Below are positions 47,907 to 59,514 of a stretch of DNA of 60,194 bases, piece by piece. Source of the DNA: a bacterium (GTDB lineage Bacteria; Actinomycetota; Acidimicrobiia; Spongiisociales; JAENVV01). The stretch is taken from contig JAHEFX010000004.1 of assembly GCA_024639975.1 (NCBI GenBank), positions 1 through 60,194 of the forward strand, written 5' to 3'. The stretch's first letter is position 1. Each line of letters starts with the position of its first letter. A model generated the notes under the pieces. It was not told where the DNA came from, did no database searches, and worked only from the letters and a program-made list of their open reading frames with translations. The position numbers and the translations under genes were made by a program.

Positions 47907-48002
47907 CCGACCTCCCGTCATCGACGTCAACGGTACGGCGTCGAATCCATGCGCGTCGGACGGATCGGCCTTCTTCTCGCTGGGCCCGGCGGGCTCGGGC
48001 GG

Positions 48003-48698
48003 CTACTCCGCCGGACCGGCGCTCGGCTCGTCCCCGGACTCGTCCGAGACCTCGGCTTCCGCTGCCCCGGGTGCCGACCCGAGGAGCTTCGCCTTCTCGA
48101 CCTCGAACTCCTCCGGCGAGATGACCCCCTCGTCGCGGAGCTTGGCGAGGTCCGTCAGATCGTCGTACTTGCCGCGCGATGGCGCAGCCGCGGTCGATGG
48201 CGCCGATCCACCCGACAGGTGGAGCGTGCGCTCTTCGCGCGCGTCGTAGATGGCCTTCTGGACCTCGGTCGGCTCCGGCACGTTCTTGAAGACCTGCAAG
48301 GAGTTCGCACCTGCCGACTCGACCGCCATGTCCCCATAGCCGAGCATCCGCTCGATCGGGCCCTGGGTCACGGCGACCGAGTTGATCGCGTCGACCGGGA
48401 TCTCCTTGCCCGACTTGGTGAAGAAACCGGTCCGAACGATGAGTCGCTCGTTGGTCACCCAGTAGCGGGTGGTGAGCCACTCGGTGATCGAGGTGGTCGC
48501 CGCAACGGCGCTGACCGCCAGGCCGGCCACCAGACCGATCAGCCCGCCCCAGACGAACCCGTCACCGATCCACCAACCCAGCCAGAGGCCGCCGACCCCC
48601 AGCACGAGGGCGAGCGCCATCCCGACGATGCCCGATCGCCAGTGCGCCCGGAACGTCATTCGGACTGCTTCCCCCGAGGTCAGGAATTCCTCTGCCAT
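48003..48698 (-). CDS. Membrane protein with bacterial PH domain and SHOCT domain
   Basis: Two TM helices; Y.VTNERLIVRTG...ERMLGYG (bPH_2); LAKLRDEGVISPEEFEVEKAKLL (SHOCT). Confidence 0.87.
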   Translation of the reverse strand: MAEEFLTSGEAVRMTFRAHWRSGIVGMALALVLGVGGLWLGWWIGDGFVWGGLIGLVAGLAVSAVAATTSITEWLTTRYWVTNERLIVRTGFFTKSGKEIPVDAINSVAVTQGPIERMLGYGDMAVESAGANSLQVFKNVPEPTEVQKAIYDAREERTLHLSGGSAPSTAAAPSRGKYDDLTDLAKLRDEGVISPEEFEVEKAKLLGSAPGAAEAEVSDESGDEPSAGPAE

Positions 48699-48800
48699 CC
48701 ACTCTCCTTTGATTCGGCCCGAACCCTACCGACCTGCCCGCTCGCGGCATGGTCGATGCGTATCGTGCACGGAGGCCAACACGGAAATTGGAGGGTCCGC

Positions 48801-50078
48801 GTGCTCATCGAGACGCCGCCGACGTTCGAACTCGCCTCACCGATGTATCGGGAGGCGTTGATCCAGTACGACTCGGTCGCCGAGTACGTCGACCTGGACG
48901 ACAACATCCGCCAACGCCTTCGACACCCCCAGCGGTCGATGGTCGTCTCATTCCCCTTCCGGCGCGACGACTACTCCGAGGTCGACACGGTCTACGGCTA
49001 TCGGGTCCAGCACCTGCACACGATGGGACCGACCAAGGGCGGCATTCGCTACGCCCCCGACGTGAACATCGGGGAGGTTGCCGCCCTGGCCATGTTCATG
49101 ACCTGGAAGTGCGCCATCATCGGCCTCCCCTTCGGCGGCGCCAAGGGCGGGGTCCGGATCGACCCGACGACGCTCACCCGCCCCGAGAAGCAGCGGGTGA
49201 CCCGCCGCTACACGTCGGAGATCATCGACTTCATCGGCCCCCATCGCGACATCCCGGCTCCGGACATGGGCACCGATGCCCAGACGATGGCGTGGATCAT
49301 GGACACCTACTCCCAACAGAAGGGCTACTCGGTACCGGCCGTGGTGACTGGCAAGCCTCCCGAGCTGGGCGGATCCGTGGCCCGTCGCGAAGCGACCGGT
49401 CGGGGGGTCATGTCCCTGCTACCGGCGGCCATGGCCCATCTCGGTCTCCCCCTCAGGGACACCCGGGTGGTCATCCACGGCTTCGGCAACGTCGGCAGGT
49501 TCGCCGCCATCGCCGGGGTCGAGATGGGCTGTCGAGTGATCGCCGTCAGCGACGTCAGCGGCGGGATCCACGACCCTGCCGGCCTCGACATCGCGAAGGC
49601 AACGGCCTGGGTGGACGAGCATGGCACCCTCGCCGACTACCCGGACGCCGACCACATCACGAACGACGAGCTGTTCGCCCTCGATTGTGAAGTCCTGGTC
49701 CCAGCGGCGATCCAAGGAGTACTCACGGGCACGAACGCGCCGGACGTCAAAGCGAAGGTGATCCTCGAAGGAGCGAACAACCCGACCACCTCCGAAGCGG
49801 ACGCCGTGTTCAAGGAGAACGGGATCTTCATCGTGCCGGACGTCCTTGCCAATGCGGGTGGCGTCACGGTCTCCTACTTCGAGTGGGTGCAGGACCTCCA
49901 GAACTACTTCTGGTCGGAGAACGAAATCGTTGCCCGTCTTCGCGAGATCATGGGCCGGGCCTTCGACGAGGTGCTCGCCCTATCGATCCGGGAGGGATTC
50001 GACATGCGTACCGCGGCCCTCGTGAAGGGCATCCGACGGGTCGGCGCCGCCAAGGCCGTCCGGGGGATCTACCCCTAG
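48801..50078 (+). CDS. gdhA: Glu/Leu/Phe/Val dehydrogenase (glutamate dehydrogenase-like)
   Basis: GPTKGGIRY, LPFGGAKGG, DIPAPD, GFGNVG, NAGGVTVSYFEWVQ. Confidence 0.9.
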   Translation: MLIETPPTFELASPMYREALIQYDSVAEYVDLDDNIRQRLRHPQRSMVVSFPFRRDDYSEVDTVYGYRVQHLHTMGPTKGGIRYAPDVNIGEVAALAMFMTWKCAIIGLPFGGAKGGVRIDPTTLTRPEKQRVTRRYTSEIIDFIGPHRDIPAPDMGTDAQTMAWIMDTYSQQKGYSVPAVVTGKPPELGGSVARREATGRGVMSLLPAAMAHLGLPLRDTRVVIHGFGNVGRFAAIAGVEMGCRVIAVSDVSGGIHDPAGLDIAKATAWVDEHGTLADYPDADHITNDELFALDCEVLVPAAIQGVLTGTNAPDVKAKVILEGANNPTTSEADAVFKENGIFIVPDVLANAGGVTVSYFEWVQDLQNYFWSENEIVARLREIMGRAFDEVLALSIREGFDMRTAALVKGIRRVGAAKAVRGIYP

Positions 50079-50753: not shown

Positions 50754-51566
50754 TCAGTCGGCGAACGCCGGACAGATGTCTTGGAACGAGCACCAATCAC
50801 AGAGGACCGACGTGGACGGCTTCCACGTATCGGTCTCGATCGCGCGGACGATGGAGTCCCAGATCGCCCGCACCTGCTTCTGCACGCCGTCGAGTACTTC
50901 GTCGTTCACCGACATCGAGTACTGGGTGGGCCCGTTCAGGTAGATGAGCCGCAGCTCGACGGGGGTCCGACCCAACCGCTGGCGGATCAACATGGCGTAG
51001 ATCTTCATGGCGAAGAAGGCCGACGCCGCGTAGCGCTCGGGCGGCGCCTTGCCGGTCTTGTAGTCGAGAATCACGAGCTCGCCATCCGGACGCTCGTCGA
51101 TCCGGTCGAGGATGCCACGGATCACCATCCCGTCGAGCTCCTCGACCAGGTCGAGCTCCCGATCCATCGGCACCACCTGCTGGGGGTCCTCGATCCCGAA
51201 GTAGTTGGCGAGCAGCTCCATCGAGGCGACGCCCCAGGCCCGCTCGTCCTCGGCCGTCTCGAACAGGCCCTCGTATTCCTCGCTACCACGAAGCTCGGTC
51301 CACGCCTTGCGGAACAGGTCGTAGAGCACCTCCGGAGCCCGTTCATCGGCGGGCCGGTCATAGAACCACTCGAGGGCGAGGTGGGCGGTGGTCCCGCGGG
51401 CCTGGTGGACGGTGGTCGGCTCGGGCAGCTTGTCGATCGATCGGAACTTGTAGAGCTGCGGGCACTGCTTGAAGTCCGATGCCCGGCTCGGGCTCAGCGT
51501 TGCGAGCACGATGGGTTCGTCGGCGTTGGGGGAGGCGTCGGAGGCGGCTTGGGCGGGGCTGGTCAC
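50754..51566 (-). CDS. RecB-family PD-(D/E)XK nuclease with 4-Cys (Fe-S) staple
   Basis: LSPSRASDFKQCP, GT.AH, GILDRID...ILDYKTGK, C-terminal LCDWCSF..IC. Confidence 0.9.
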   Translation of the reverse strand: MTSPAQAASDASPNADEPIVLATLSPSRASDFKQCPQLYKFRSIDKLPEPTTVHQARGTTAHLALEWFYDRPADERAPEVLYDLFRKAWTELRGSEEYEGLFETAEDERAWGVASMELLANYFGIEDPQQVVPMDRELDLVEELDGMVIRGILDRIDERPDGELVILDYKTGKAPPERYAASAFFAMKIYAMLIRQRLGRTPVELRLIYLNGPTQYSMSVNDEVLDGVQKQVRAIWDSIVRAIETDTWKPSTSVLCDWCSFQDICPAFAD

Positions 51567-51706
51567 GCTCCTGATCGTAGGAGGGGGGTCGGACGGAAAC
51601 GCGTATCCATCCCCGGTCCATGCTCGTTTTCGACCAGAGCGCGAAATTCTCACCCGGTTCGCGAAAAGAACGGCCTGATTTCGGGTTCGGGACCCTCCGG
51701 ATGGCA

Positions 51707-51712
51707 TATAGT
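51707..51712 (+). promoter_or_regulatory. Sigma-A-like -10 element for the putative ncRNA
   Basis: TATAGT in the AT-rich patch ATATAGTTCCTATT, about 7-9 nt before the hairpin array begins. Confidence 0.6.
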
Positions 51713-51719
51713 TCCTATT

Positions 51720-52233
51720 GCACGAACCGGAGCGATCCGGGGAGTGCCGGGACCGGAGCGATCCGGGACCGGGCCGACGATCGGACCATGCGGAACGAGC
51801 GTCGGCGGACCCCCACAGGTCCGCCTCGGCCGGTGCAGCGCCTTCGGGTGGCGATCGGACGGGTGGGTCGGGGAGGCTCCCCCGGGGAGCGGCCTTCGGG
51901 CCGGGCCACGGGGACCGACGGACGGGAGACCGGACGGCGGAGTCGACACTTCGGTGTCGATGGCCACCCGGACTCGACAGTGAAGTGGACGAGAGTCCAC
52001 GGCCCTCGGACGGGGCCCGAAAGGAAGCCGACCGAAGGTTGCCGGAAGACCGGCGGAGCCGACCGCAAGGAAGGCGCCGAACGGAGCTGGCAGGCCGCAG
52101 ACGCAGGCATGGCTGCAGTGGCTGGTCGGAAGCGACCCAGGTCGCCGAAGACAGGCATCAGGCTCACGCTGGATGCCACGGGAGCCCCGAGGGGGCGGAA
52201 GCCGAAAGGCTGAAGCTTTCTCGGGGCTTTCCC
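51720..52233 (+). ncRNA. Large structured non-coding RNA (Ms1-like candidate or novel family)
   Basis: Gene-free interval with dense stems capped by stable tetraloops: CCGGA-GCGA-TCCGG twice, CGCC-TTCG-GGTG, CGGCC-TTCG-GGCCG, TCGACAC-TTCG-GTGTCGA, GTGGAC-GAGA-GTCCAC, CC-GAAA-GG, CC-GCAA-GG, AGCC-GAAA-GGCT; -10 upstream and a long closing stem at the 3' end. Confidence 0.75.
52180..52233 (+). terminator. 3' terminal stem of the putative ncRNA (also convergent with ybaK)
   Basis: GGGAGCCCCGAG...CTCGGGGCTTTCCC enclosing a GAAA-capped hairpin. Confidence 0.6.
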
Positions 52234-52243
52234 ATGTCCGGGG

Positions 52244-52714
52244 TCAGTTGGTGAGGTCTGCCACCGTTGCCGCCAGCACGCCCCGGAATGCGGCTGGATC
52301 CACGGAGACGAGGAGGCCGCGCCGACCGCCGTTGACCAGTACCTCGTCGAGGTCGGCAAGCCGTTCATCGCACAGGACCTGCACGCGACGCCGGGTACCG
52401 AACGGCGAGATGCCACCGATCCGGTATCCCGTGACCTTCTCGGCCTGTTCTTCGGTCGCCGGTGCCACCTTCTTGGCGCCGAGCAGGCGTCCGACCGAAC
52501 GCGTCGAGATCTCTCGGTCACCGGGAGCCACGACCAGTACGGGCTCGCCATCGGCTTCGAGCACGATGGTCTTGGCGACCAGTCGGAGCTCGACGCCGAG
52601 GGCTTCGGCTGCGCCGGCCGCCCCGCCGCCGGCGTATCGATACGGATGGGTCCCGAAATCGACGTCGTGACCCCGCAGTTGGCGCGTCGCCGCCGTCTGT
52701 CCGACGCCTGCCAT
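52244..52714 (-). CDS. ybaK: YbaK/EbsC aminoacyl-tRNA deacylase
   Basis: AAEALG...KTIV, A...TGY.IGGISPFG, VNGGRRG. Confidence 0.9.
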   Translation of the reverse strand: MAGVGQTAATRQLRGHDVDFGTHPYRYAGGGAAGAAEALGVELRLVAKTIVLEADGEPVLVVAPGDREISTRSVGRLLGAKKVAPATEEQAEKVTGYRIGGISPFGTRRRVQVLCDERLADLDEVLVNGGRRGLLVSVDPAAFRGVLAATVADLTN

Positions 52715-52715
52715 G

Positions 52716-53288
52716 TCAGTCCGGGGCACTGAAATGGGCGACGACGCGGTCAGCCGCTTCTGCCGCCCACTCGTGGGCGAGGGGCAAGGGCATCTCGGCA
52801 ACGGCCAACGAGTCCTCGACACGGGTCGTCGCCCCGAGCTGTCCGAAGACCTCGATCATCTTGCGATTCTCGGCCAGGACGATGCCGACGAACTCCTCGA
52901 CCCCGTTCTGCATGGCCGTGCGGGCCAGCACCGAAAGAAGGAAGGAGCCGATGCCGAGGCCTTGATAGTCGTCGACGACCGTGACCGCCGCTTCTGCCCT
53001 CGGCTCGCCCTCCAGCCGGACGTAGCGGGCGATGCCGGCCGGACGCAGCTCGCCGTCATCGTCGATCAGACATCCCCAGGCGGCATGGTCGTGCTGGTCG
53101 AGCTCTGTGAGGTAGACGAGCTCGTCCTCGGTCAGCTCACGGACGATCCGGTGGAACCGGAAGTAGTTACTCAGCTCGCTGAGCTGGCTCAGCGCCGTCT
53201 GGAGCATCTCCTTGTCCTCGGGCGCGATCTGGCGGACATGGACCACGACCCCACGCGGGAGCACGACGCGGAGCGGATCGGGCGACAT
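52716..53288 (-). CDS. GNAT family N-acetyltransferase
   Basis: LSELSNYFRFH, GIARY, AEAAVTVVDDYQGLGIG, VLAENRKM. Confidence 0.9.
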   Translation of the reverse strand: MSPDPLRVVLPRGVVVHVRQIAPEDKEMLQTALSQLSELSNYFRFHRIVRELTEDELVYLTELDQHDHAAWGCLIDDDGELRPAGIARYVRLEGEPRAEAAVTVVDDYQGLGIGSFLLSVLARTAMQNGVEEFVGIVLAENRKMIEVFGQLGATTRVEDSLAVAEMPLPLAHEWAAEAADRVVAHFSAPD

Positions 53289-53345
53289 GGGGGAATCGTA
53301 CGCACGGAGAAGAATCCGTCACACCCTCCCCGTACCGTTTGGTCC

Positions 53346-53465
53346 ATGAAAGAGATCGAAGACATCCTCGAAGAAGCAGGCCTCGAGTTCGAGGTCCTCC
53401 ATGTCGGGCCGGCAGCTCTCTGCACGGGCTGCCTCGACGGCGCAGACCTTCCATTGGCCGCCTAG
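53346..53465 (+). CDS. Small hypothetical protein (39 aa), CxxC and C-terminal LPLAA
   Basis: MKEIEDILEEAGLEFEVLHVGPAALCTGCLDGADLPLAA*; fills the intergenic gap; -10-like TACCGT 7 nt upstream. Confidence 0.55.
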   Translation: MKEIEDILEEAGLEFEVLHVGPAALCTGCLDGADLPLAA

Positions 53466-53503
53466 GCGCCACCGACAACACCTGCTATCACCGTCCCCGG
53501 GAC

Positions 53504-56479
53504 ATGACACGACACACCACAGGGGACGAGATCCGGCTGGGACCGGATGAGTGGGACGACGCCATCGCGGCCACCGGAGGGCCCCAGCTGGTCGTCGCCG
53601 GGCCCGGCGCCGGCAAGACCGAGTTCCTGGTCCGGAGGGCCGCACATCTCGTGGCCACGGGCGTCGACCCGAGAACGATCGTCGTCCTCACGTTCTCGCG
53701 GCGTGGTGCGGCCGAGCTGACGACGCGGATCCGACGATCCGTCGATCCGGAGACGCCGGCCCCGCGGGCCGTCACCTTCCACTCCCTTGCTGCCCGGATC
53801 GTCGAAGCGTTCGGCGAGGTGGTCGGCTGGTCCGAGCCGCCGGCGCTCCTCACCGGCCCCGAACAGGTCGACCTGGTCGCCCGCCTCCTCACCGAGCAGT
53901 CGGCGTCGAACTGGCCGGTCGGGTTCCAGCCCTTGCTCGAGTCGAGGTCCTTTGCCGAGGAGGTCACCGACTTCCTGCTCCGGGCCCGGGAGTACACCCT
54001 CGGCCAGGACGACCTGGTCGCGGCGACCGCCGGCAGGGCCGATTGGGTGGCACTCCCCCGGTTCGACCGCGAGTACGACCGGGCACTCGCCGACCAGCAC
54101 CGCCTCGACTACGCCTCCTTGATCCTGGCGGCCACCCGAATCGCCCAGAGCGAGGAGGTCGTCGACCAACTCGCCCGCGACATCAGTCATGTCCTCGTCG
54201 ACGAGTACCAGGACACCACCGCCGCCCAGGCCGACTTCCTCGGGGCCTTGACGGCGGGCTCGTCGAACCTGACCGTCGCTGCCGACCCGTATCAGTCCAT
54301 CTACTCGTTCCGCGGAGCCGCCCTCGAGAACGTCGACCGATTCCGAACCCAGTTCATGGCCCCCGACGGCTCGCCCGCCCGTCGAGTGGTATTGACGACG
54401 TCGTTCCGCGTTCCCGCCGGGATCCTGCGACCCGCCGAGCGGCTCACCGCAGGCGACCTGCCGGGAGCAGCCGGTCCGGTCTCGCCGGCGGGCGATGGCG
54501 GCCGTGTCGACGTTCGGGTGTTCGACCAGCGAACCCACGAAGCCGACTGGATCGCGTCCGAGCTACATCGGCTGCACCTCGTCGAGCAGATCCCTCTGCA
54601 GCGCATGGCGGTGGCCGTTCGGTCCACCCGCCGGCTGCTCCCCGACCTCTCGCGGGCCCTCGAGCGCCGTGGCCTTCCCCACGACCGGCCGGACAGCCGT
54701 CTGGTCGACCACCCCGCCGTCCGGGCGGTGGCCGACATCGTTTCGTTGGCCGCCGACGATGGCTCCCTCTCCGAGGCAGACCAGCGGCGTGCGGCGCGTC
54801 GCCTGCTCCTGGGCCCGCTCGTCGGCCTCCCCCTGGGTGCCGAGCGGGAGGCCCTCCGTGAGCGGGTGGGCTCTCGCGCCGACTGGGCCTCGGTGTTCCG
54901 AGGGATCGGCGAGGAGACCGCCGCGCTCGCCGACCTGATCGACGACGGGAACTGGGCGACCGACTCGGGAGCCGCCGACGGGTTCTGGCACCTCTGGTCC
55001 GGTCTCCCGTCGCTCACCGACCGCTGCCTAGCCGACGACGGTTGGCGAGCCGCCTGCACGTCGTTCTCCCAGACCCTCTCCCAGCTCGCCGAGCGCGACG
55101 CCGGCACCGACCTGGCCTCCTACCTGCGACTGGCCGAAGCCGACGACTTCGAGGCGACGCCGCTGCTCCGCCACGACCCGGCCAACGAGGACCGGCTCGT
55201 CGTCACCACCCTCCACCAACTCAAGGGTCTCCAGTTCGATGTCGTGGTGATCGCCGATGCGGTCGACGGCATTCTTCCCGACCTGCGGCGCTCGGTCTCG
55301 ATCCTCAACACCCACCTCCTCCCGGAGGCCCGCCGAGACCCGGTGGAGGCAGCTCGATTCCGGGTCCAGGAGGAGATGCGCCTCGCCTACACGGCGATGA
55401 CGAGGGCCTCCGAGCGAGTCATCTGGACCGCCACCGCCGAAGGCAAGGACGAGACCGAGGACCGCCCTTCGCGTTTCCTGACGGCGGTCACCGACCGGGA
55501 CCCGGCCCTCACCCAGACAAGCCCCCGACGACCGGTCACTCCCCTGGAGGCCGAAGCCGAGCTTCGACGGACCCTCGGTGACCCGGGGGCCCCGGCCGCC
55601 CAACGCCTTGCTGCAGCCGCCGTCATCACCGATTCCGAGATGCCTCACCTCCGCCCCATCGAGGCGCTGCCGGGCATCCGCGAGCCGGGGCCGACGGCCG
55701 GTCTGATACCCGAGTCAGCCGCCTTCTCGCCGAGCCAGGCCCAGGCCTTCGATGCCTGTCCCCGCTCCTACGCCCTCGGTCGGCATCTCGGGATCGGAGA
55801 CGAGCCCTCGCTCTACATGACGTTCGGAAGCCTGGTCCATGCGGTCGCCGAGCACGCCGACCGAGCAGCCTTGGAACGAGGAACACCCGCCACCGCAAGG
55901 GAGGCCCTTGCGGTTCTCGACGCCAAGTTCCACCCCGGCGACTTCGGGGGCCCGCCGTGGTCAGACCATTGGCACCGGCGCGCCGTCGAGGCCGTGGAGA
56001 ACCTCTACACGATGCCCCCGGGCGCCGGCTCCACGCCGGCCGTGGTCGAGCGACCCCTGGTGCTGGAGATCGATGGCGAGCACTGGCGGGGTCGCGCCGA
56101 CCGCATCGACGCCGACGACGGGTCATTGAAGGTCATCGACTACAAGACCGGCAAGAACCCCGCCAGCGCCAAGGACACGAAGGAGAGCCTCCAGCTCGGC
56201 TTCTACGCGTTGGCGGCCGCAGCCGATCCGGAGGTCGCCGGGCTCGGCACGGTCGACGGAGCCGAGCTGTGGTTCCCGCTGGCGGCACAGAAGCGCGGCT
56301 TCGCAACGCGTCCTTTCGACATGGCCAACCTTGAGGGTGTTCGGGAACGCCTGGCCGAGATCGCGACGTCCATACGCCGGGAGGAGTTCCCGCCGAACGT
56401 GGGAGCGGCATGCGACCGGTGCCCCGTCCGGATCCTCTGCGACGAATGGCCCGAGGGTCGGGAGGCGTTCGTCCCTTGA
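53504..56479 (+). CDS. adnA: UvrD-like helicase/RecB-like nuclease, AdnA-like
   Basis: AGPGAGKT, DEYQD, QSIYSFRGA, EEMRLAYTAMTRA; C-terminal GRADRID...IDYKTG with a C...CxxC...C staple. Confidence 0.85.
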   Translation: MTRHTTGDEIRLGPDEWDDAIAATGGPQLVVAGPGAGKTEFLVRRAAHLVATGVDPRTIVVLTFSRRGAAELTTRIRRSVDPETPAPRAVTFHSLAARIVEAFGEVVGWSEPPALLTGPEQVDLVARLLTEQSASNWPVGFQPLLESRSFAEEVTDFLLRAREYTLGQDDLVAATAGRADWVALPRFDREYDRALADQHRLDYASLILAATRIAQSEEVVDQLARDISHVLVDEYQDTTAAQADFLGALTAGSSNLTVAADPYQSIYSFRGAALENVDRFRTQFMAPDGSPARRVVLTTSFRVPAGILRPAERLTAGDLPGAAGPVSPAGDGGRVDVRVFDQRTHEADWIASELHRLHLVEQIPLQRMAVAVRSTRRLLPDLSRALERRGLPHDRPDSRLVDHPAVRAVADIVSLAADDGSLSEADQRRAARRLLLGPLVGLPLGAEREALRERVGSRADWASVFRGIGEETAALADLIDDGNWATDSGAADGFWHLWSGLPSLTDRCLADDGWRAACTSFSQTLSQLAERDAGTDLASYLRLAEADDFEATPLLRHDPANEDRLVVTTLHQLKGLQFDVVVIADAVDGILPDLRRSVSILNTHLLPEARRDPVEAARFRVQEEMRLAYTAMTRASERVIWTATAEGKDETEDRPSRFLTAVTDRDPALTQTSPRRPVTPLEAEAELRRTLGDPGAPAAQRLAAAAVITDSEMPHLRPIEALPGIREPGPTAGLIPESAAFSPSQAQAFDACPRSYALGRHLGIGDEPSLYMTFGSLVHAVAEHADRAALERGTPATAREALAVLDAKFHPGDFGGPPWSDHWHRRAVEAVENLYTMPPGAGSTPAVVERPLVLEIDGEHWRGRADRIDADDGSLKVIDYKTGKNPASAKDTKESLQLGFYALAAAADPEVAGLGTVDGAELWFPLAAQKRGFATRPFDMANLEGVRERLAEIATSIRREEFPPNVGAACDRCPVRILCDEWPEGREAFVP

Positions 56480-59400
56480 ACGAACCCACCCCCACGCCCG
56501 AGCAACAGGCGATCCTCGATGCCGGGCGCGGTCCGATGCGGATCGACGCCGGTGCCGGCACCGGCAAGACCTGGACCCTCGTCGCCAAGATCGCCTCGCT
56601 CGTGGAGCGAGGGGTGCCTCCGGAACGGATCCTCGGCATCACCTTCACCAACAAGGCCGCCGGTGAGCTGGCCGGCCGGGTACGGGGGGCGGTCGCCGAA
56701 CTGGTGGACATCGGGATCGAGGTCGACATCCACACCTACCACGGGTTCGCCGCCCGGGTCCTGCGGGAGTTCGGTCCCTTCGTGGGCGTGGAGCGCGACG
56801 CCAGGGTCATCACCCCCACGTTCTCCCGGCAGCTCCTGATCGAGTCCATCTCCGAGACACCGGACCTCGAACTGCTGAACCTCACCTACCTCCCAGCCGT
56901 GCTGGACCCGCTGGCGTCGCTGACCCAATCCATGTCAGACAACCTCGTCGACCCCGGAGTCCTGCTCTCGCCCGACCCCGATGACGACATCGAACGACGA
57001 CGGGCCCAACTCGCTTCCGTGGTGGTCGAGTACCGGAGCGAGAAGGCCCGTCTGGGGGTCCTCGACTACGGCGACCTCATCGCTCGGGCCCACGAGCTCG
57101 TCTCGACCCGGCCGGAGGTTCGCGACCGGATCGCCGATCGGTATGAAGTCATCCTGCTCGACGAGTACCAGGACACCGACCCCGCCCAGCGCCACCTACT
57201 GCAGCAGCTGTTCGGTGACGCCCGTACGGTGATCGCCGTCGGCGACCCCGACCAGACGATCTACGAATGGCGAGGGGCCTCCATCGAGAACTTCGAGGCC
57301 TTCCCGGAGCACTTCCCCACGGCTGACGGCAGCCCGGCCCCCACCCTGCCGCTCTCGCTGAACCGACGATCGGGCCAACTCATCCTCGACGTCGCCAACG
57401 CCGTGCGAGCCGAAGTGGGCGATGCGGCTCGGGCCCCGCTCCGCGCACCGGACGGCACGCCGGCCGGTTCCGTGACCGTCGGCTACCACCGCACCGCCGT
57501 CGATGAGGCGGCCGCCATCGCCGACCTGGTCCTCGAGCACCGCAACGAGGGCCTCGACTACCGCCAGATGGCCGTCCTCGTCCGATCGAGCTCCGCCATC
57601 TCCCCGGTTCGGGCAGCGTTGGCAGACGCAGACATCCCCGTGGAGGTGGCGAGTCTCGGGGGGTTGTTGGATGTGCCCGAGATCGTCGAGATACATGCAT
57701 GGTTGCGCCTCCTCCACGACGCCTCCGACTCGGTGGCCTTCGCCCGGTTGGCGATGGGCTCGCGGGGACGCCTCGGACCTGCCGAGCTGAAGCCACTCGC
57801 CGATTGGGTCCATGCCGGTCGCCATGGTGTCGCCCGGACACTCACCGAGGCGCTCGACCATCTCGACGAGCTCGACGTGTCACCGGAGGCGAACGCCGTC
57901 CTGGGTGGCCTCCGCGATCGCCTTCGACGTCTGCTTCCGGCCGCCCAGGGACTCAGCCTCTCCGAGCTGGTGCGGGAGGTCCTCGGCGAGATCGACGCGT
58001 GGCGGGACATCGAGTCGCTCCCTCCGGCCGCCGCCCTGTCCGGCCGCCTCAACCTCTACCGGTTCCTGGACCTCGCCGAGGAGTGGAGCCCATTGGAGGG
58101 CCGCCCGTCGCTCGAGGCGTTCCTCGAGCACCTGGCCCTGCTCGGCGAGGAACGGACCGAGGAGCCCGAGGCTGCCCGGCTCTCGGGCGAGGATGCCGTC
58201 ACCATCGTGACCGTCCACCGGGCGAAGGGCCTCGAGTGGGAGGTGGTGTTCCTCCCGTCGGTGGTCGACGCCCGCTTCCCCATCACCGGGCGCGCCTTCG
58301 ACGACCCGTTCTCCAAGCCGGCTTCCCTCCCCCACCGCCTTCGGCTGGACTCCAATGCCCTGCCGTGGCTCGACCCCGACGACAAGAAGCAGCGCGAGGA
58401 CGTGCTGCGCGAGCACGCCCTCGCAGCCGAGTGGCGCCTCGCCTACGTGGCCGTCACCCGGGCCCGCCAGTTCCTCCATGTCTCGGGGGCCCACTGGTAC
58501 GGCAGTCCACAGACCCTGAAGAACGCCAAACGGCCTTCGCCTCTCTACGAGGTCGTCGCCCGGGTCGACGGCGTGGACGACCTCGGAACGGCTGATCCCG
58601 GCGAGCGACCGGACACGCTCGTCCCGCCGACGCGGCACTCGGCTCCCGATCCCCTCTTCCGGGATGGCTGGGATGGCGCCCTTCGGTCGGCGGCGGAGCG
58701 TCCGGACTGGCCGGCGACACTCGCCGCCGAGCTGGGCATCACCGCGGCATACGATGAAGCGGTGGCCGACTTCCAGGACATGCTCTTCTCGCTTCCGGAG
58801 CCGCCGGCGTCGGAAACTGCCGAGGCGGCTCCGACGGTCTCGGTCTCGGGGCTCGTGACCTACGCCCGGTGTCCCAAGCAGTACTTCTGGAGCCATGTCG
58901 AGCCACTGCCGCGTCGCCCGAATCCGGCCGCGGCACGAGGGGTGGCCGTCCACCGCAAGATCGAGCTCCACAACCTGGGCCACCTCCCACTCGACGACGC
59001 CGGCGAGGCCGTGTACGACGTGACCGAGCCCGTATCACCCCCGGACGGTCGGGTCGGGGCGTGGGAGGCGTTCCAGGATTCCCGCTATGCGACCGAGCGG
59101 CCCCTCCTGGTCGAAGCGCCGTTCGAGACCGTCGCCCACGGCACCACCATCCGGGGACGGATCGATGCCATCTACGGCGACGACTCGGCCTGGGAGATCG
59201 TCGACTTCAAATCCGGCAGACCCACCGACGACCCGGCAGTCGGCATCCAACTCGACGCCTATGCCATCGCCGTCGCCGACGGCGCCGTCTCCCGGTCCCA
59301 GCCCGACGATCTGACGGTCTCTTTCGCCTATCTGGGAGACGGCCTCAGCGTTCGATCGAGGAAGCTGGACGCCGAGGAGCTGGCTTCTGCCCGGTCCAGG

Positions 59401-59514
59401 GTGGAGGCGGTCGTGTCGGGTCTGACCGCCGAGGACTTCGCACCAAGGCCGGGCGACCGCTGCCGGCGCTGCGACTTCGTCGACGTCTGCCCCGAGGGAC
59501 GGACCCAGCTCTAG
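56476..59514 (+). CDS. adnB: UvrD-like helicase/RecB-like nuclease, AdnB-like
   Basis: [43 protein letters not shown]; GRIDA...IVDFKSG; TTG overlaps the adnA stop. Confidence 0.87.

What the first reader, a model, noticed from the sequence alone, without database searches (positions are those of the whole stretch)
51700..52235. ~515-nt tetraloop-rich structured RNA, divergent from a RecB-family nuclease
Seen: the gap between the nuclease gene (starts 51566, minus strand) and ybaK (ends 52244) has no credible ORF. It has a TATAGT -10 at 51707-51712, then a run of hairpins: CCGGA-GCGA-TCCGG twice (51727-51740, 51753-51766), GGCGGACC/GGTCCGCC (51804-51825), three C(UUCG)G loops (51839-51850, 51890-51903, 51943-51960), GTGGAC-GAGA-GTCCAC (51985-52000), GCCGG-AAGA-CCGGC (52041-52054), GCC-GA-CC-GCAA-GG-AA-GGC (52058-52075), GGCATC/GATGCC (52154-52177) and a long terminal stem (52180-52233). 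The loops read as GNRA/UUCG on the plus strand, which sets the RNA orientation. Established: UUCG/GNRA loops mark stable functional RNAs; I see no RNase P, tmRNA or SRP signature sequences. Inference: either a much-expanded homologue of the actinobacterial RNA-polymerase-binding Ms1 RNA (about 300 nt in mycobacteria) or an undescribed large ncRNA class. This is the best candidate for a new system in the window.
Basis: partly seen in the sequence, partly recalled or inferred. Interest (0 to 1): 0.85.

Follow-up and report, generated by a model that had tools for sequence, protein, structure and literature searches.

The report
Abundant new modular RNA of Acidimicrobiia
The gap holds a real, highly expressed non-coding RNA of about 516 bases, a long form of an undescribed RNA family that is common in one order of Acidimicrobiia and has its own special promoter; what it does is not yet known.

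Summary
Window 51567-52243 is non-coding. It folds far better than shuffles on the + strand (z -7.5, against -3.5 on the - strand). It carries 7 UNCG/GNRA-capped hairpins on +, 0 on -, and 0.8 in shuffles. Metatranscriptome contigs cover only this RNA, not the flanking genes. It is not Ms1, 6S, SRP or RNase P RNA.

It is the expanded, single-copy member in this genus of an RNA family absent from Rfam 15. The terminal hairpin occurs in 139 of 151 genomes of the order, at 1-11 copies and often in tandem. The basic unit is about 150 nt with four hairpins; 35 of 52 pairs show compensatory changes. Each unit has a fixed promoter: two CGCGAAA boxes 20 nt apart, with the -10 at +68 to +70. The usual locus is a PD-(D/E)XK nuclease gene (divergent), then the RNA or RNAs, then a bPH_2-SHOCT gene. 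Long forms are a 5' extension plus a canonical 3' unit.

The function is inferred only. Most likely it is a trans-acting, protein-binding RNA switched on by a factor that binds the boxes.

The parts
51640..51646 (+). Promoter box 1 (CGCGAAA), at about -81 from the inferred start
   Evidence: Read. The pair of boxes with a 13-nt gap occurs only twice in the 2.35-Mb genome. It marks the promoters of this RNA family in relatives.
51660..51666 (+). Promoter box 2 (CGCGAAA), 20 nt after box 1, at about -61
51685..51690 (+). Position of the -35 hexamer (GTTCGG here, a weak match; relatives have TTGcca or TTGACG at this offset)
   Evidence: The offset of 45-50 from box 1 carries a conserved TTG in 82 aligned units. 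The simple consensus scan did not call it.
51707..51712 (+). -10 hexamer TATAGT
   Evidence: A TAnnnT hexamer lies at offset 67-69 from box 1 in 29 of the 30 complete promoter units (a 31st is cut by the end of its locus) in the family and G049. It lies at offset 68-70 in 180 of 193 units overall.
51720..52235 (+). The ncRNA, about 516 nt. The 5' end is inferred at the G eight bases after the -10. The 3' end is inferred after the terminal hairpin.
   Evidence: RNA-library contigs cover 51730-52167 collectively.
51717..51828 (+). 5' segment that resembles one degenerate family unit. It includes the two GCGA-capped hairpins at 51727-51740 and 51753-51766 and the hairpin at 51804-51825.
   Evidence: Model R2 scores 25.2 bits, E 3.2e-5.
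51829..52116 (+). Variable central expansion. It holds UUCG hairpins at 51839-51850, 51890-51903 and 51943-51960, a GAGA hairpin at 51985-52000, and hairpins at 52041-52054 and 52058-52075.
   Evidence: This part barely aligns even within the genus.
52117..52235 (+). Canonical 3' unit of the family. H1-H3 are degenerate here; it includes the hairpin at 52154-52177.
   Evidence: Model R2 scores 43.1 bits, E 7.9e-10. The same arrangement is seen in other long forms.
52174..52235 (+). Conserved terminal hairpin H4 (CCCCGAG..GGGyG, a small capped hairpin, then CTCGGGG plus a short T run). It is a presumed terminator or stabiliser.
   Evidence: Model R1 scores 64.9 bits, E 3.5e-15. Covariation is shown.
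51730..52101 (.). Stretch covered by metatranscriptome contigs of runs X3 and X4 (0 differences, k-mer depths 88 and 183). X6 reaches 52167.
50754..51566 (-). Divergent PD-(D/E)XK (RecB/Cas4-like) nuclease gene, the conserved neighbour of the RNA locus
   Evidence: Pfam PDDEXK_1, E 1.5e-35. It is the upstream neighbour in 36 of 52 loci. It is present in 22 of 22 family genomes.
52244..52822 (-). Convergent ybaK-type (tRNA_edit) gene. It is a neighbour only in this genus and a few others.

Best explanation
SHOWN. The interval encodes a + strand, stand-alone, highly expressed non-coding RNA of about 516 nt (about 51720-52235). It is the only copy in this genome of an RNA family found in about nine-tenths of sampled genomes of the same order of Acidimicrobiia.

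The family's basic unit is about 150 nt with four hairpins. H1 is GNRA-capped. H2 has a CGAGAGG loop. H3 is UUCG-capped with a conserved AGAC/GGAGU internal loop. H4 is a highly conserved terminal hairpin. Every unit has the same rigid promoter: two CGCGAAA boxes 20 nt apart, a TTG-type -35 at +45 and a TAnnnT -10 at +68. Units often stand in tandem arrays. Long forms such as the window's consist of a hairpin-rich, purine-rich 5' extension, with remnants of unit motifs, fused to a canonical 3' unit.

INFERRED (about one chance in three for the specific mechanism). The RNA acts in trans as a protein-binding RNA that titrates or scaffolds a partner. The partner would recognise the conserved internal loops and H4, not the tetraloops, which only cap the helices. 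Valency and dose are set by copy number and by fusion of units. Synthesis is switched by a dedicated DNA-binding factor at the two boxes. The logic resembles GacA-RsmX/Y/Z or 6S/Ms1, but the partner is unknown. H4 ends and stabilises the transcript.
For: Non-coding and structured.

Strand. UNCG/GNRA loops occur only on +. G.U pairs are near-invariant in H4: columns 137/159 are G.U in 33 of 35 sequences and 125/171 in 27 of 35. R2 scores 43.1 bits on + against 19 on -. The promoter and T-rich tail are on +.

Expression. RNA-library contigs from 4 runs of 3 studies cover 51730-52167 only, with k-mer depths of 88 and 183 in libraries of 88 and 129 million letters. Depth is zero over 1 kb of coding flank on each side.

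Family. R1 matched 139 of 151 genomes of the order, and 101 of 110 high-quality ones. R2 matched 35 of 37 genomes in the order against 4 of 114 in other orders of the class.

Structure. 88.0% of cells are paired, against 35-56% when partners are slid. 35 of 52 pairs show compensatory changes, against 24.1 +/- 2.3 in shuffles; 0 of 500 shuffles reach the observed value.

Promoter. The double box occurs 1-3 times per genome in 10 relatives, with 0 hits in backward controls, and almost always lies before a unit. 17 of 18 loci found by H4 alone carry it on the same strand.

Modularity. Unit lengths range from 108 to 1207 nt with a cluster at 141-157. The last ~150 nt of long forms score 36-80 bits on R2 (L027 35.7, L042 49.4, others 67-80).

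No conserved single-stranded seed. Conserved bases lie in internal loops and H4. Linkers are short and 47% A.

No 6S RNA was found in 0 of 22 family genomes.
Against: No partner protein has been identified, and no binding was tested. Sequence-specific binding to the boxes is inferred from conservation only.

The window's own -35 is poor. The simple consensus scan called neither a promoter nor a + strand terminator in 51400-52500.

The RNA contigs do not cover the last 68 nt (H4), and the contigs of X3 and X4 stop at 52093-52101. The 3' end is therefore not shown, and processing near 52100 is possible.

Adapter orientation in the contigs conflicts. The read-1 adapter abuts 51730 in X3 and X4, which in a dUTP library would mean a - strand RNA. 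X6 shows the opposite orientation. The RNA data therefore do not settle the strand.

CsrA is absent (0 of 22 genomes), so the best-known sponge system is not the model.

In the window, H1-H3 of the 3' unit are degenerate.
Confidence: 0.75

Rival explanations
1. It is a functional analogue of 6S/Ms1. An abundant RNA binds RNA polymerase, core or holoenzyme, and stores or sequesters it. This would fill the slot left empty by the missing 6S RNA in these genomes.
For: 6S (RF00013) was found in 0 of 22 family genomes, while the control found it in 5 of 14 model genomes. SRP and RNase P RNAs are found normally. The RNA is very abundant in metatranscriptomes. Ms1 has extra 5' and 3' hairpins (passage of PMC9130861), and this RNA also has local 5' and 3' hairpins. 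'Acidimicrob' occurs 0 times in the main text of that paper. Expanded forms in genus g3 fold into a large domain closed by a long-range helix.
Against: The conserved unit is four independent hairpins. It has no 5'-3' closing stem and no central bubble. No Rfam match appears even at E <= 10. Synteny differs from Ms1. Copy number of 1-11 and lengths of 108-1207 nt are unlike 6S or Ms1.
Confidence: 0.2
2. It is a base-pairing regulatory sRNA family whose members act on mRNAs in trans.
For: It is a stand-alone gene with its own promoter and terminator-like hairpin. Multi-copy sRNA families of this kind exist.
Against: No conserved single-stranded seed is present. The loops are generic UNCG/GNRA caps. 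Conservation sits in paired or internal-loop positions. Lengths of up to 600 nt are unusual for such sRNAs.
Confidence: 0.1
3. It is a structural or self-assembling RNA. GNRA loops and A-rich linkers would mediate tertiary or intermolecular contacts, so that the RNA forms a compact particle or multimer whose function follows from its architecture.
For: Nearly all hairpins are GNRA- or UNCG-capped. Linkers are 47% A. Internal loops are conserved. The RNA is highly abundant.
Against: The size and number of helices vary greatly between genera and even within a genus. This is hard to reconcile with one defined 3D architecture. No tetraloop receptor was identified.
Confidence: 0.1
4. It is a cis-acting element. 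It could be a long leader of the downstream bPH_2-SHOCT gene in relatives, or - strand operon spacer/UTR RNA between ybaK and the nuclease gene in the window.
For: The downstream gene is co-oriented in 35 of 45 loci and is bPH_2 in 26 of 45. ybaK and the nuclease gene are both on the - strand. The read-1 adapter orientation in X3 and X4 would fit a - strand RNA if those libraries were dUTP-stranded.
Against: In the window, the next gene on + is absent and ybaK is convergent. In relatives, the bPH_2 gene has its own -10 six to seven bases before its start codon, right after H4 (sequence read). RNA contigs do not extend into either flanking gene. G.U pairs, tetraloops, the promoter and the CM scores all point to +. 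Tandem units each have a promoter and H4.
Confidence: 0.03
5. It is an RNA partner, guide or regulator of the adjacent PD-(D/E)XK nuclease.
For: The nuclease gene is the divergent upstream neighbour in 36 of 52 loci.
Against: Five of 5 complete genomes that lack the RNA still have the nuclease, with no RNA beside it. Family genomes G017, G011 and G015 (loci L029, L034, L044) have coding sequence, not the RNA, directly beside the nuclease gene, yet each still has an H4 match elsewhere. No variable guide-like segment is evident.
Confidence: 0.03

Closest known systems
Ms1 RNA (RNAP-core-binding RNA of Mycobacterium and Streptomyces)
   Same: Both occur in Actinomycetota. Both are abundant stand-alone ncRNAs in genomes without a detectable 6S RNA. 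Both have local hairpins at each end and conserved synteny in their own lineage.
   Different: No CM match. Different flanking genes. No rod with a central bubble in the conserved unit. This family is multi-copy and of very variable length. RNAP binding was not tested.
Rsm/Csr sponge RNAs with their GacA-dependent promoters (RsmX/Y/Z, CsrB). This comparison is recalled from general knowledge, not taken from a call.
   Same: Both are multi-copy with variable length through repetition of hairpin modules. Both have a strong terminal hairpin. Both have a conserved upstream promoter element found almost only at these RNA genes.
   Different: No CsrA gene was found (0 of 22 genomes). The loops are UNCG/GNRA, not GGA. 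The box sequence differs and its binder is unknown. The phylum differs.
6S RNA (RF00013)
   Same: Both are abundant housekeeping-type ncRNAs. The basic unit here (about 150 nt) is close to 6S in size.
   Different: No CM match in the window or in 22 family genomes. The fold is four hairpins rather than a closed rod with a bubble.
Orphan structured ncRNAs found by comparative genomics (for example raiA and the IMES RNAs of metatranscriptomes). This comparison is recalled; they are represented in Rfam.
   Same: All are known only from covariation, with high abundance in environmental RNA data and no assigned function.
   Different: No Rfam family matches. This family is restricted to one order of Acidimicrobiia and has a modular, expandable build.

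Membership tests
Ms1 RNA | Match to the curated covariance model (Rfam) | tested here: not met
   There were 0 matches at gathering score in the whole window. Among the 5 noise-level rows at E <= 10 in 51500-52350, none was Ms1. Six homologous loci gave 0 matches at E <= 0.1. Caveat from PMC9130861 (passage): the Rfam model finds only close relatives of mycobacteria.
Ms1 RNA | Conserved flanking genes (HAD-IB hydrolase / oxidoreductase) | tested here: not met
   The flanks here are PDDEXK_1 and tRNA_edit. Across the order they are PDDEXK_1 and bPH_2-SHOCT. The Ms1 synteny phrases come from passages of PMC9130861. Its supplementary figures could not be seen.
Ms1 RNA | About 300 nt, a rod with a central bubble plus short 5' and 3' hairpins | tested here: inconclusive
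   The conserved unit is four local hairpins with no rod or bubble. Long forms have a large domain closed by a long-range helix in MFE and alifold predictions, but no bubble was demonstrated.
Ms1 RNA | Binds RNA polymerase core | not testable with these tools
   This needs RIP or gradient experiments.
6S RNA | Covariance-model match; closed rod with a central bubble | tested here: not met
   (0 of 22 genomes); structure.
SRP RNA / RNase P RNA | Being the genome's copy of these universal RNAs | tested here: not met
   Both lie elsewhere in the same genome: RF00169 at C154:29933-30031 (65.2 bits) and RF00010 at C16:9466-9810 (290.4 bits).
Csr/Rsm-type sponge | CsrA-family protein encoded; repeated GGA motifs in loops | tested here: not met
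   PF02599 was found in 0 of 22 family genomes. The loops are UUCG and GNRA. GGA is only 1.5-fold enriched.
New family defined here (models R1, R2) | Terminal hairpin H4 | tested here: met
   Window 52174-52235 scores 64.9 bits on R1, E 3.5e-15. The window sequence was one of the 18 used to build R1, so its match is partly by construction. The independent support is the hits in 139 of 151 genomes.
New family defined here (models R1, R2) | Double CGCGAAA box at fixed distance from a TAnnnT -10 | tested here: met
   Boxes lie at 51640 and 51660, and the -10 is at offset 67.
New family defined here (models R1, R2) | Full four-hairpin unit (H1-H4) | tested here: inconclusive
   R2 was built without the window sequence. 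It gives 43.1 bits at 52117-52235, mostly from H4, with many non-canonical pairs in H1-H3, and 25.2 bits at 51717-51828.

The most novel reading that the evidence does not exclude
This is a previously unrecognised regulatory circuit of Acidimicrobiales. A dedicated factor that binds the two CGCGAAA boxes drives massive synthesis of a modular RNA. The RNA grows by tandem duplication and fusion of 150-nt units. It captures a global protein, either RNA polymerase or sigma (the missing 6S/Ms1 function) or an RNA-binding protein not yet known in Actinomycetota. This would make it a third, independent invention of the 'abundant decoy RNA' principle.
Probability: 0.3. Interest if true: 0.85.

Novelty: categorically new. 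Interest (0 to 1): 0.75.

Why it matters
Acidimicrobiia are common in sediments, soils, oceans and wastewater, but are almost unstudied at the molecular level. Here is an RNA that is among their most abundant transcripts in environmental RNA data. It is present in most genomes of a whole order and is absent from Rfam. It has strong covariation and a promoter signature so specific that it finds the genes by itself.

It gives a concrete handle on how these bacteria run global regulation without a recognisable 6S RNA. It also offers a ready annotation model for hundreds of MAGs and a natural example of an RNA that enlarges by fusing copies of itself.

Tried and rejected
Rfam. The whole window was scanned at gathering score, the region at E <= 10 and six homologous loci at E <= 0.1. 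Only noise came back.

Coding reading. I rejected it because of the flat codon-position G+C and the lack of Pfam hits for the overlapping ORFs.

Strict terminal-hairpin pattern. It found only 4 of 401 genomes. It was too strict, so I replaced it with covariance model R1.

Plain BLAST of the RNA against 60 relatives gave only fragments outside the genus.

ybaK synteny holds only in this genus, G005 and genus g7, so it does not define the family.

Double box upstream of dnaA in the own genome. It has the same 13-nt gap, but it was not found in the two congeners. I left it as an oddity and did not use it as evidence for a regulon.

CsrA: 0 of 22 genomes.

Nuclease partnership. I rejected it as an obligate link.

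Strand from RNA contigs. The adapter orientations conflict between studies, so I did not use them. No RNA contig covers 52168-52235.

Literature. Five searches found no description of this RNA or of the box motif. I saw search listings and abstracts only. For PMC9130861 I saw passages. Supplements are closed, so its supplementary lists of Ms1 loci and genera could not be checked.

Labels. A few records labelled Acidobacteriota, Gemmatimonadales or Pyrinomonadaceae matched the hairpin pattern. Three of them (L131, L140, L145) carry full units with the double box. I did not resolve whether the labels are wrong.

Full report
OBSERVATION. I read the sequence at 51400-52500.

The gap between the PD-(D/E)XK nuclease gene (50754-51566, - strand; Pfam PDDEXK_1, E 1.5e-35) and the YbaK-type gene (52244-52822, - strand; tRNA_edit, E 6.4e-29) is about 677 nt. 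G+C at the three codon positions is flat over 51550-52300 (0.65-0.75), while the flanking genes show the usual pattern of about 0.9/0.4/0.7. The three long ORFs that overlap the gap have no Pfam match.

As RNA, the + strand folds to -305.3 kcal/mol (z -7.51, 0 of 100 shuffles as good). The - strand folds to -266.9 (z -3.50). I counted hairpins with stems of 4 bp or more closed on UNCG or GNRA loops. There are 7 on +, 0 on -, and 0.82 +/- 0.88 in 1000 dinucleotide shuffles, with a maximum of 4.

NOT A KNOWN FAMILY. Rfam 15 (4227 models) gives no match at gathering score in the whole 60-kb window. It gives only five noise-level rows at E <= 10 in 51500-52350. It gives nothing at E <= 0.1 in six homologous loci.

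The genome's SRP RNA and RNase P RNA lie on other contigs. 6S RNA was not found in any of 22 genomes of the family, although the control search found it in 5 of 14 model genomes.

It is described there as a roughly 300-nt rod with a central bubble plus two end hairpins. Neither the flanks nor the conserved fold fit here.

RELATIVES. The RNA is single-copy in its own genome, a MAG of 2.35 Mb that is 84% complete. The two congeners have a syntenic RNA whose 5' third and 3' end align while the middle barely does.

The nuclease gene is present in 22 of 22 family genomes. Reading upstream of it showed a recurring gene unit. Two CGCGAAA boxes stand 20 nt apart. A TTG-type -35 and a TAnnnT -10 follow. 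Then comes a purine-rich RNA full of UUCG and GNRA hairpins that ends in a conserved hairpin.

The -10 lies 67-69 nt after the first box in 29 of the 30 complete promoter units (a 31st is cut by the end of its locus). Over all loci collected later it lies at 68-70 nt in 180 of 193 units. The TTG and TA..TT positions are conserved independently of the boxes used to find the units.

The exact double-box pattern occurs 1-3 times per genome in ten relatives, with no hit in the backward control. Nearly every hit precedes such an RNA.

By these offsets the window RNA should start at about G51720 and end at about 52235, giving 516 nt.

THE FAMILY. A covariance model of the terminal hairpin (R1, from 18 sequences) matched 139 of 151 sampled genomes of the order. 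Among genomes at least 90% complete it matched 101 of 110. Copy number was 1-11 per genome, often in tandem 260-1000 nt apart. These tallies include two unpublished genomes, G025 and G036. Of 18 loci found by R1 alone, 17 carry the double box on the same strand.

A pattern scan of one genome per species found at least 119 stretches. Nearly all were in MAGs labelled Acidimicrobiia, Acidimicrobiaceae or Actinomycetota. A few carry other labels, which I did not resolve.

The 159 units with both ends found (of 193 collected) range from 108 to 1207 nt, with a tight cluster at 141-157 nt. I aligned 35 of these short forms (A2). They fold into four hairpins. RNAalifold finds 38 pairs, 25 of them with compensatory changes.

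On a 52-pair structure, 88.0% of cells are standard pairs, against 35-56% when the 3' partners are slid by 1-3 columns. Also, 35 pairs have changes on both sides, against 24.1 +/- 2.3 in 500 shuffles, none of which reached the observed value. The shuffle control ignores relatedness. The slid control does not, and it agrees.

Conserved, non-covarying sequence sits in the H2 loop (CGAGAGG, 22.6-fold enriched), in the H3 internal loop (AGAC/GGAGU) and in H4. Several G.U pairs are near-invariant, which fixes the strand as +.

Model R2, built without the window sequence, matched 35 of 37 genomes of the order but only 4 of 114 genomes of other orders of the class, and those weakly.

WHERE THE WINDOW RNA FITS. 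R2 matches the window at 52117-52235 (43.1 bits, mostly H4, with H1-H3 degenerate). It also matches at 51717-51828 (25.2 bits). The - strand gives only 19 bits over H4.

In other long forms, the last ~150 nt are a full canonical unit (36-80 bits: 35.7 in the congener G001, 49.4 in L042, otherwise 67-80). The 5' end is weakly unit-like (12-20 bits). Long forms are therefore a 5' extension fused to a canonical 3' unit. A plausible origin is the loss of a terminator and a promoter between tandem units; this step is inference.

In genus g3 the extension is structurally constrained. Of 148 predicted pairs, few are broken and 8 show double changes among seven close sequences. A long-range helix closes a multi-helix domain. 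The MFE fold of the window RNA has a similar closed central domain.

In this genus the long RNA is the only family member, so it presumably carries the family's function.

EXPRESSION. Two metatranscriptome runs come from the study that probably yielded the DNA. Each holds one contig that matches 51730-52101 (X3, depth 88) or 51731-52093 (X4, depth 183) without a difference. These libraries hold only 88 and 129 million letters. Runs of two other studies hold contigs over 51952-52167 (X6, 4 differences) and 51783-52013 (X7).

No RNA contig touches the 1 kb of nuclease gene or the 0.75 kb of ybaK laid alongside, so carried-over DNA does not explain the signal.

There are limits. These are contigs, so level, ends and strand are not shown. 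H4 (52174-52235) is not covered in any run. Adapter orientation is contradictory: the read-1 adapter lies at the low end in X3 and X4 and at the high end in X6. The start of cover at 51730/51731 in two runs is compatible with a 5' end at or shortly upstream, but does not prove one.

CONTEXT. In 82 of the 119 pattern-found loci, a double box and a terminal hairpin lie within 1300 nt of each other. The gene on the promoter side is divergent in 46 of 52 cases and a PDDEXK_1 nuclease in 36 of 52. The gene after the last unit is co-oriented in 35 of 45 cases and carries bPH_2 (26 of 45) and SHOCT (24 of 45).

In the relatives I read, that gene has its own -10 six to seven bases before its start codon, directly after H4. 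The RNA is therefore not its leader.

Five complete genomes without the RNA still have the nuclease, with no RNA beside it. The link to the nuclease is thus synteny, not dependence.

MECHANISM. What is shown is a stand-alone, abundant, structured RNA gene with a dedicated promoter architecture, modular growth and order-wide conservation. What is inferred is the rest.

There is no conserved single-stranded seed, and the tetraloops are generic caps. Conservation sits in internal loops and H4, and copy number and valency vary. The best reading is therefore a protein-binding RNA, acting as decoy or scaffold, made on command of a box-binding factor.

The resemblance to GacA-Rsm RNAs and to 6S/Ms1 is one of logic only. 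CsrA is absent (0 of 22 genomes) and the 6S/Ms1 fold is not met. I put about 0.3-0.35 on this mechanism and 0.2 on the specific RNAP-binding version. The other rivals get less. I put about 0.95 on the statement that this is a genuine, expressed member of a new RNA family.

NOVELTY. No Rfam family matches. Five literature searches found no description (listings and abstracts only). I rate the family as new. The general kind, an abundant bacterial ncRNA of unknown function, is familiar.

Noticed in passing
L032, L040, L030, L039 and L047 (loci of genera g2, g3, g5, g6), just upstream of the nuclease start; also L220-L224: The nuclease gene of relatives has TGTCAC-like and TATAGT elements, with the -10 only 6-7 bases before the ATG, so the mRNA is leaderless. 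This resembles the actinobacterial RecA-independent (PafBC-type) DNA-damage promoter; that consensus is recalled, not taken from a call. The window's own nuclease gene has a different upstream region with an AGGAG before a GTG.
   Followed up: partly
Own genome contig C134, - strand, about 24894 (outside the window): This is the second and only other occurrence of the double CGCGAAA box in the genome, with the same 13-nt gap. It lies in the rpmH-dnaA intergenic region, upstream of DnaA-box-like repeats. It was not found in the two congeners.
   Followed up: partly
window 53339-56479 and 56410-59514 (+): Two long overlapping ORFs. The first carries UvrD-helicase plus a C-terminal PDDEXK_1 domain, which is an AdnA/AdnB-like helicase-nuclease arrangement. 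It lies close to the single-domain nuclease.
   Followed up: no
window 47949-50078 (+): A Glu/Leu/Phe/Val dehydrogenase ORF of 709 aa. The N-terminal extension of about 320 residues has no Pfam match, so the start codon may be wrong or there may be an extra domain.
   Followed up: no
L045 and L046 (genus g7); G045:C1:21637-22236: In some genomes, two RNA units are arranged divergently from a central pair of box regions instead of in tandem.
   Followed up: no
L131, L140 and L145 (records labelled Acidobacteria/Acidobacteriota); L090, L114: Records labelled as other phyla match the terminal-hairpin pattern. Three of them carry complete units with the double box. This could be mislabelled bins or real spread outside Acidimicrobiia.
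   Followed up: partly
whole window 1-60194: No Rfam family reaches gathering score anywhere in the 60 kb, so there is not even a tRNA or riboswitch in the window.
   Followed up: no
G405:C77:46807-46977 (another order of the class): A full-length R2 match of 39.8 bits lies outside the order. It may be a distant member and would extend the family's range.
   Followed up: no
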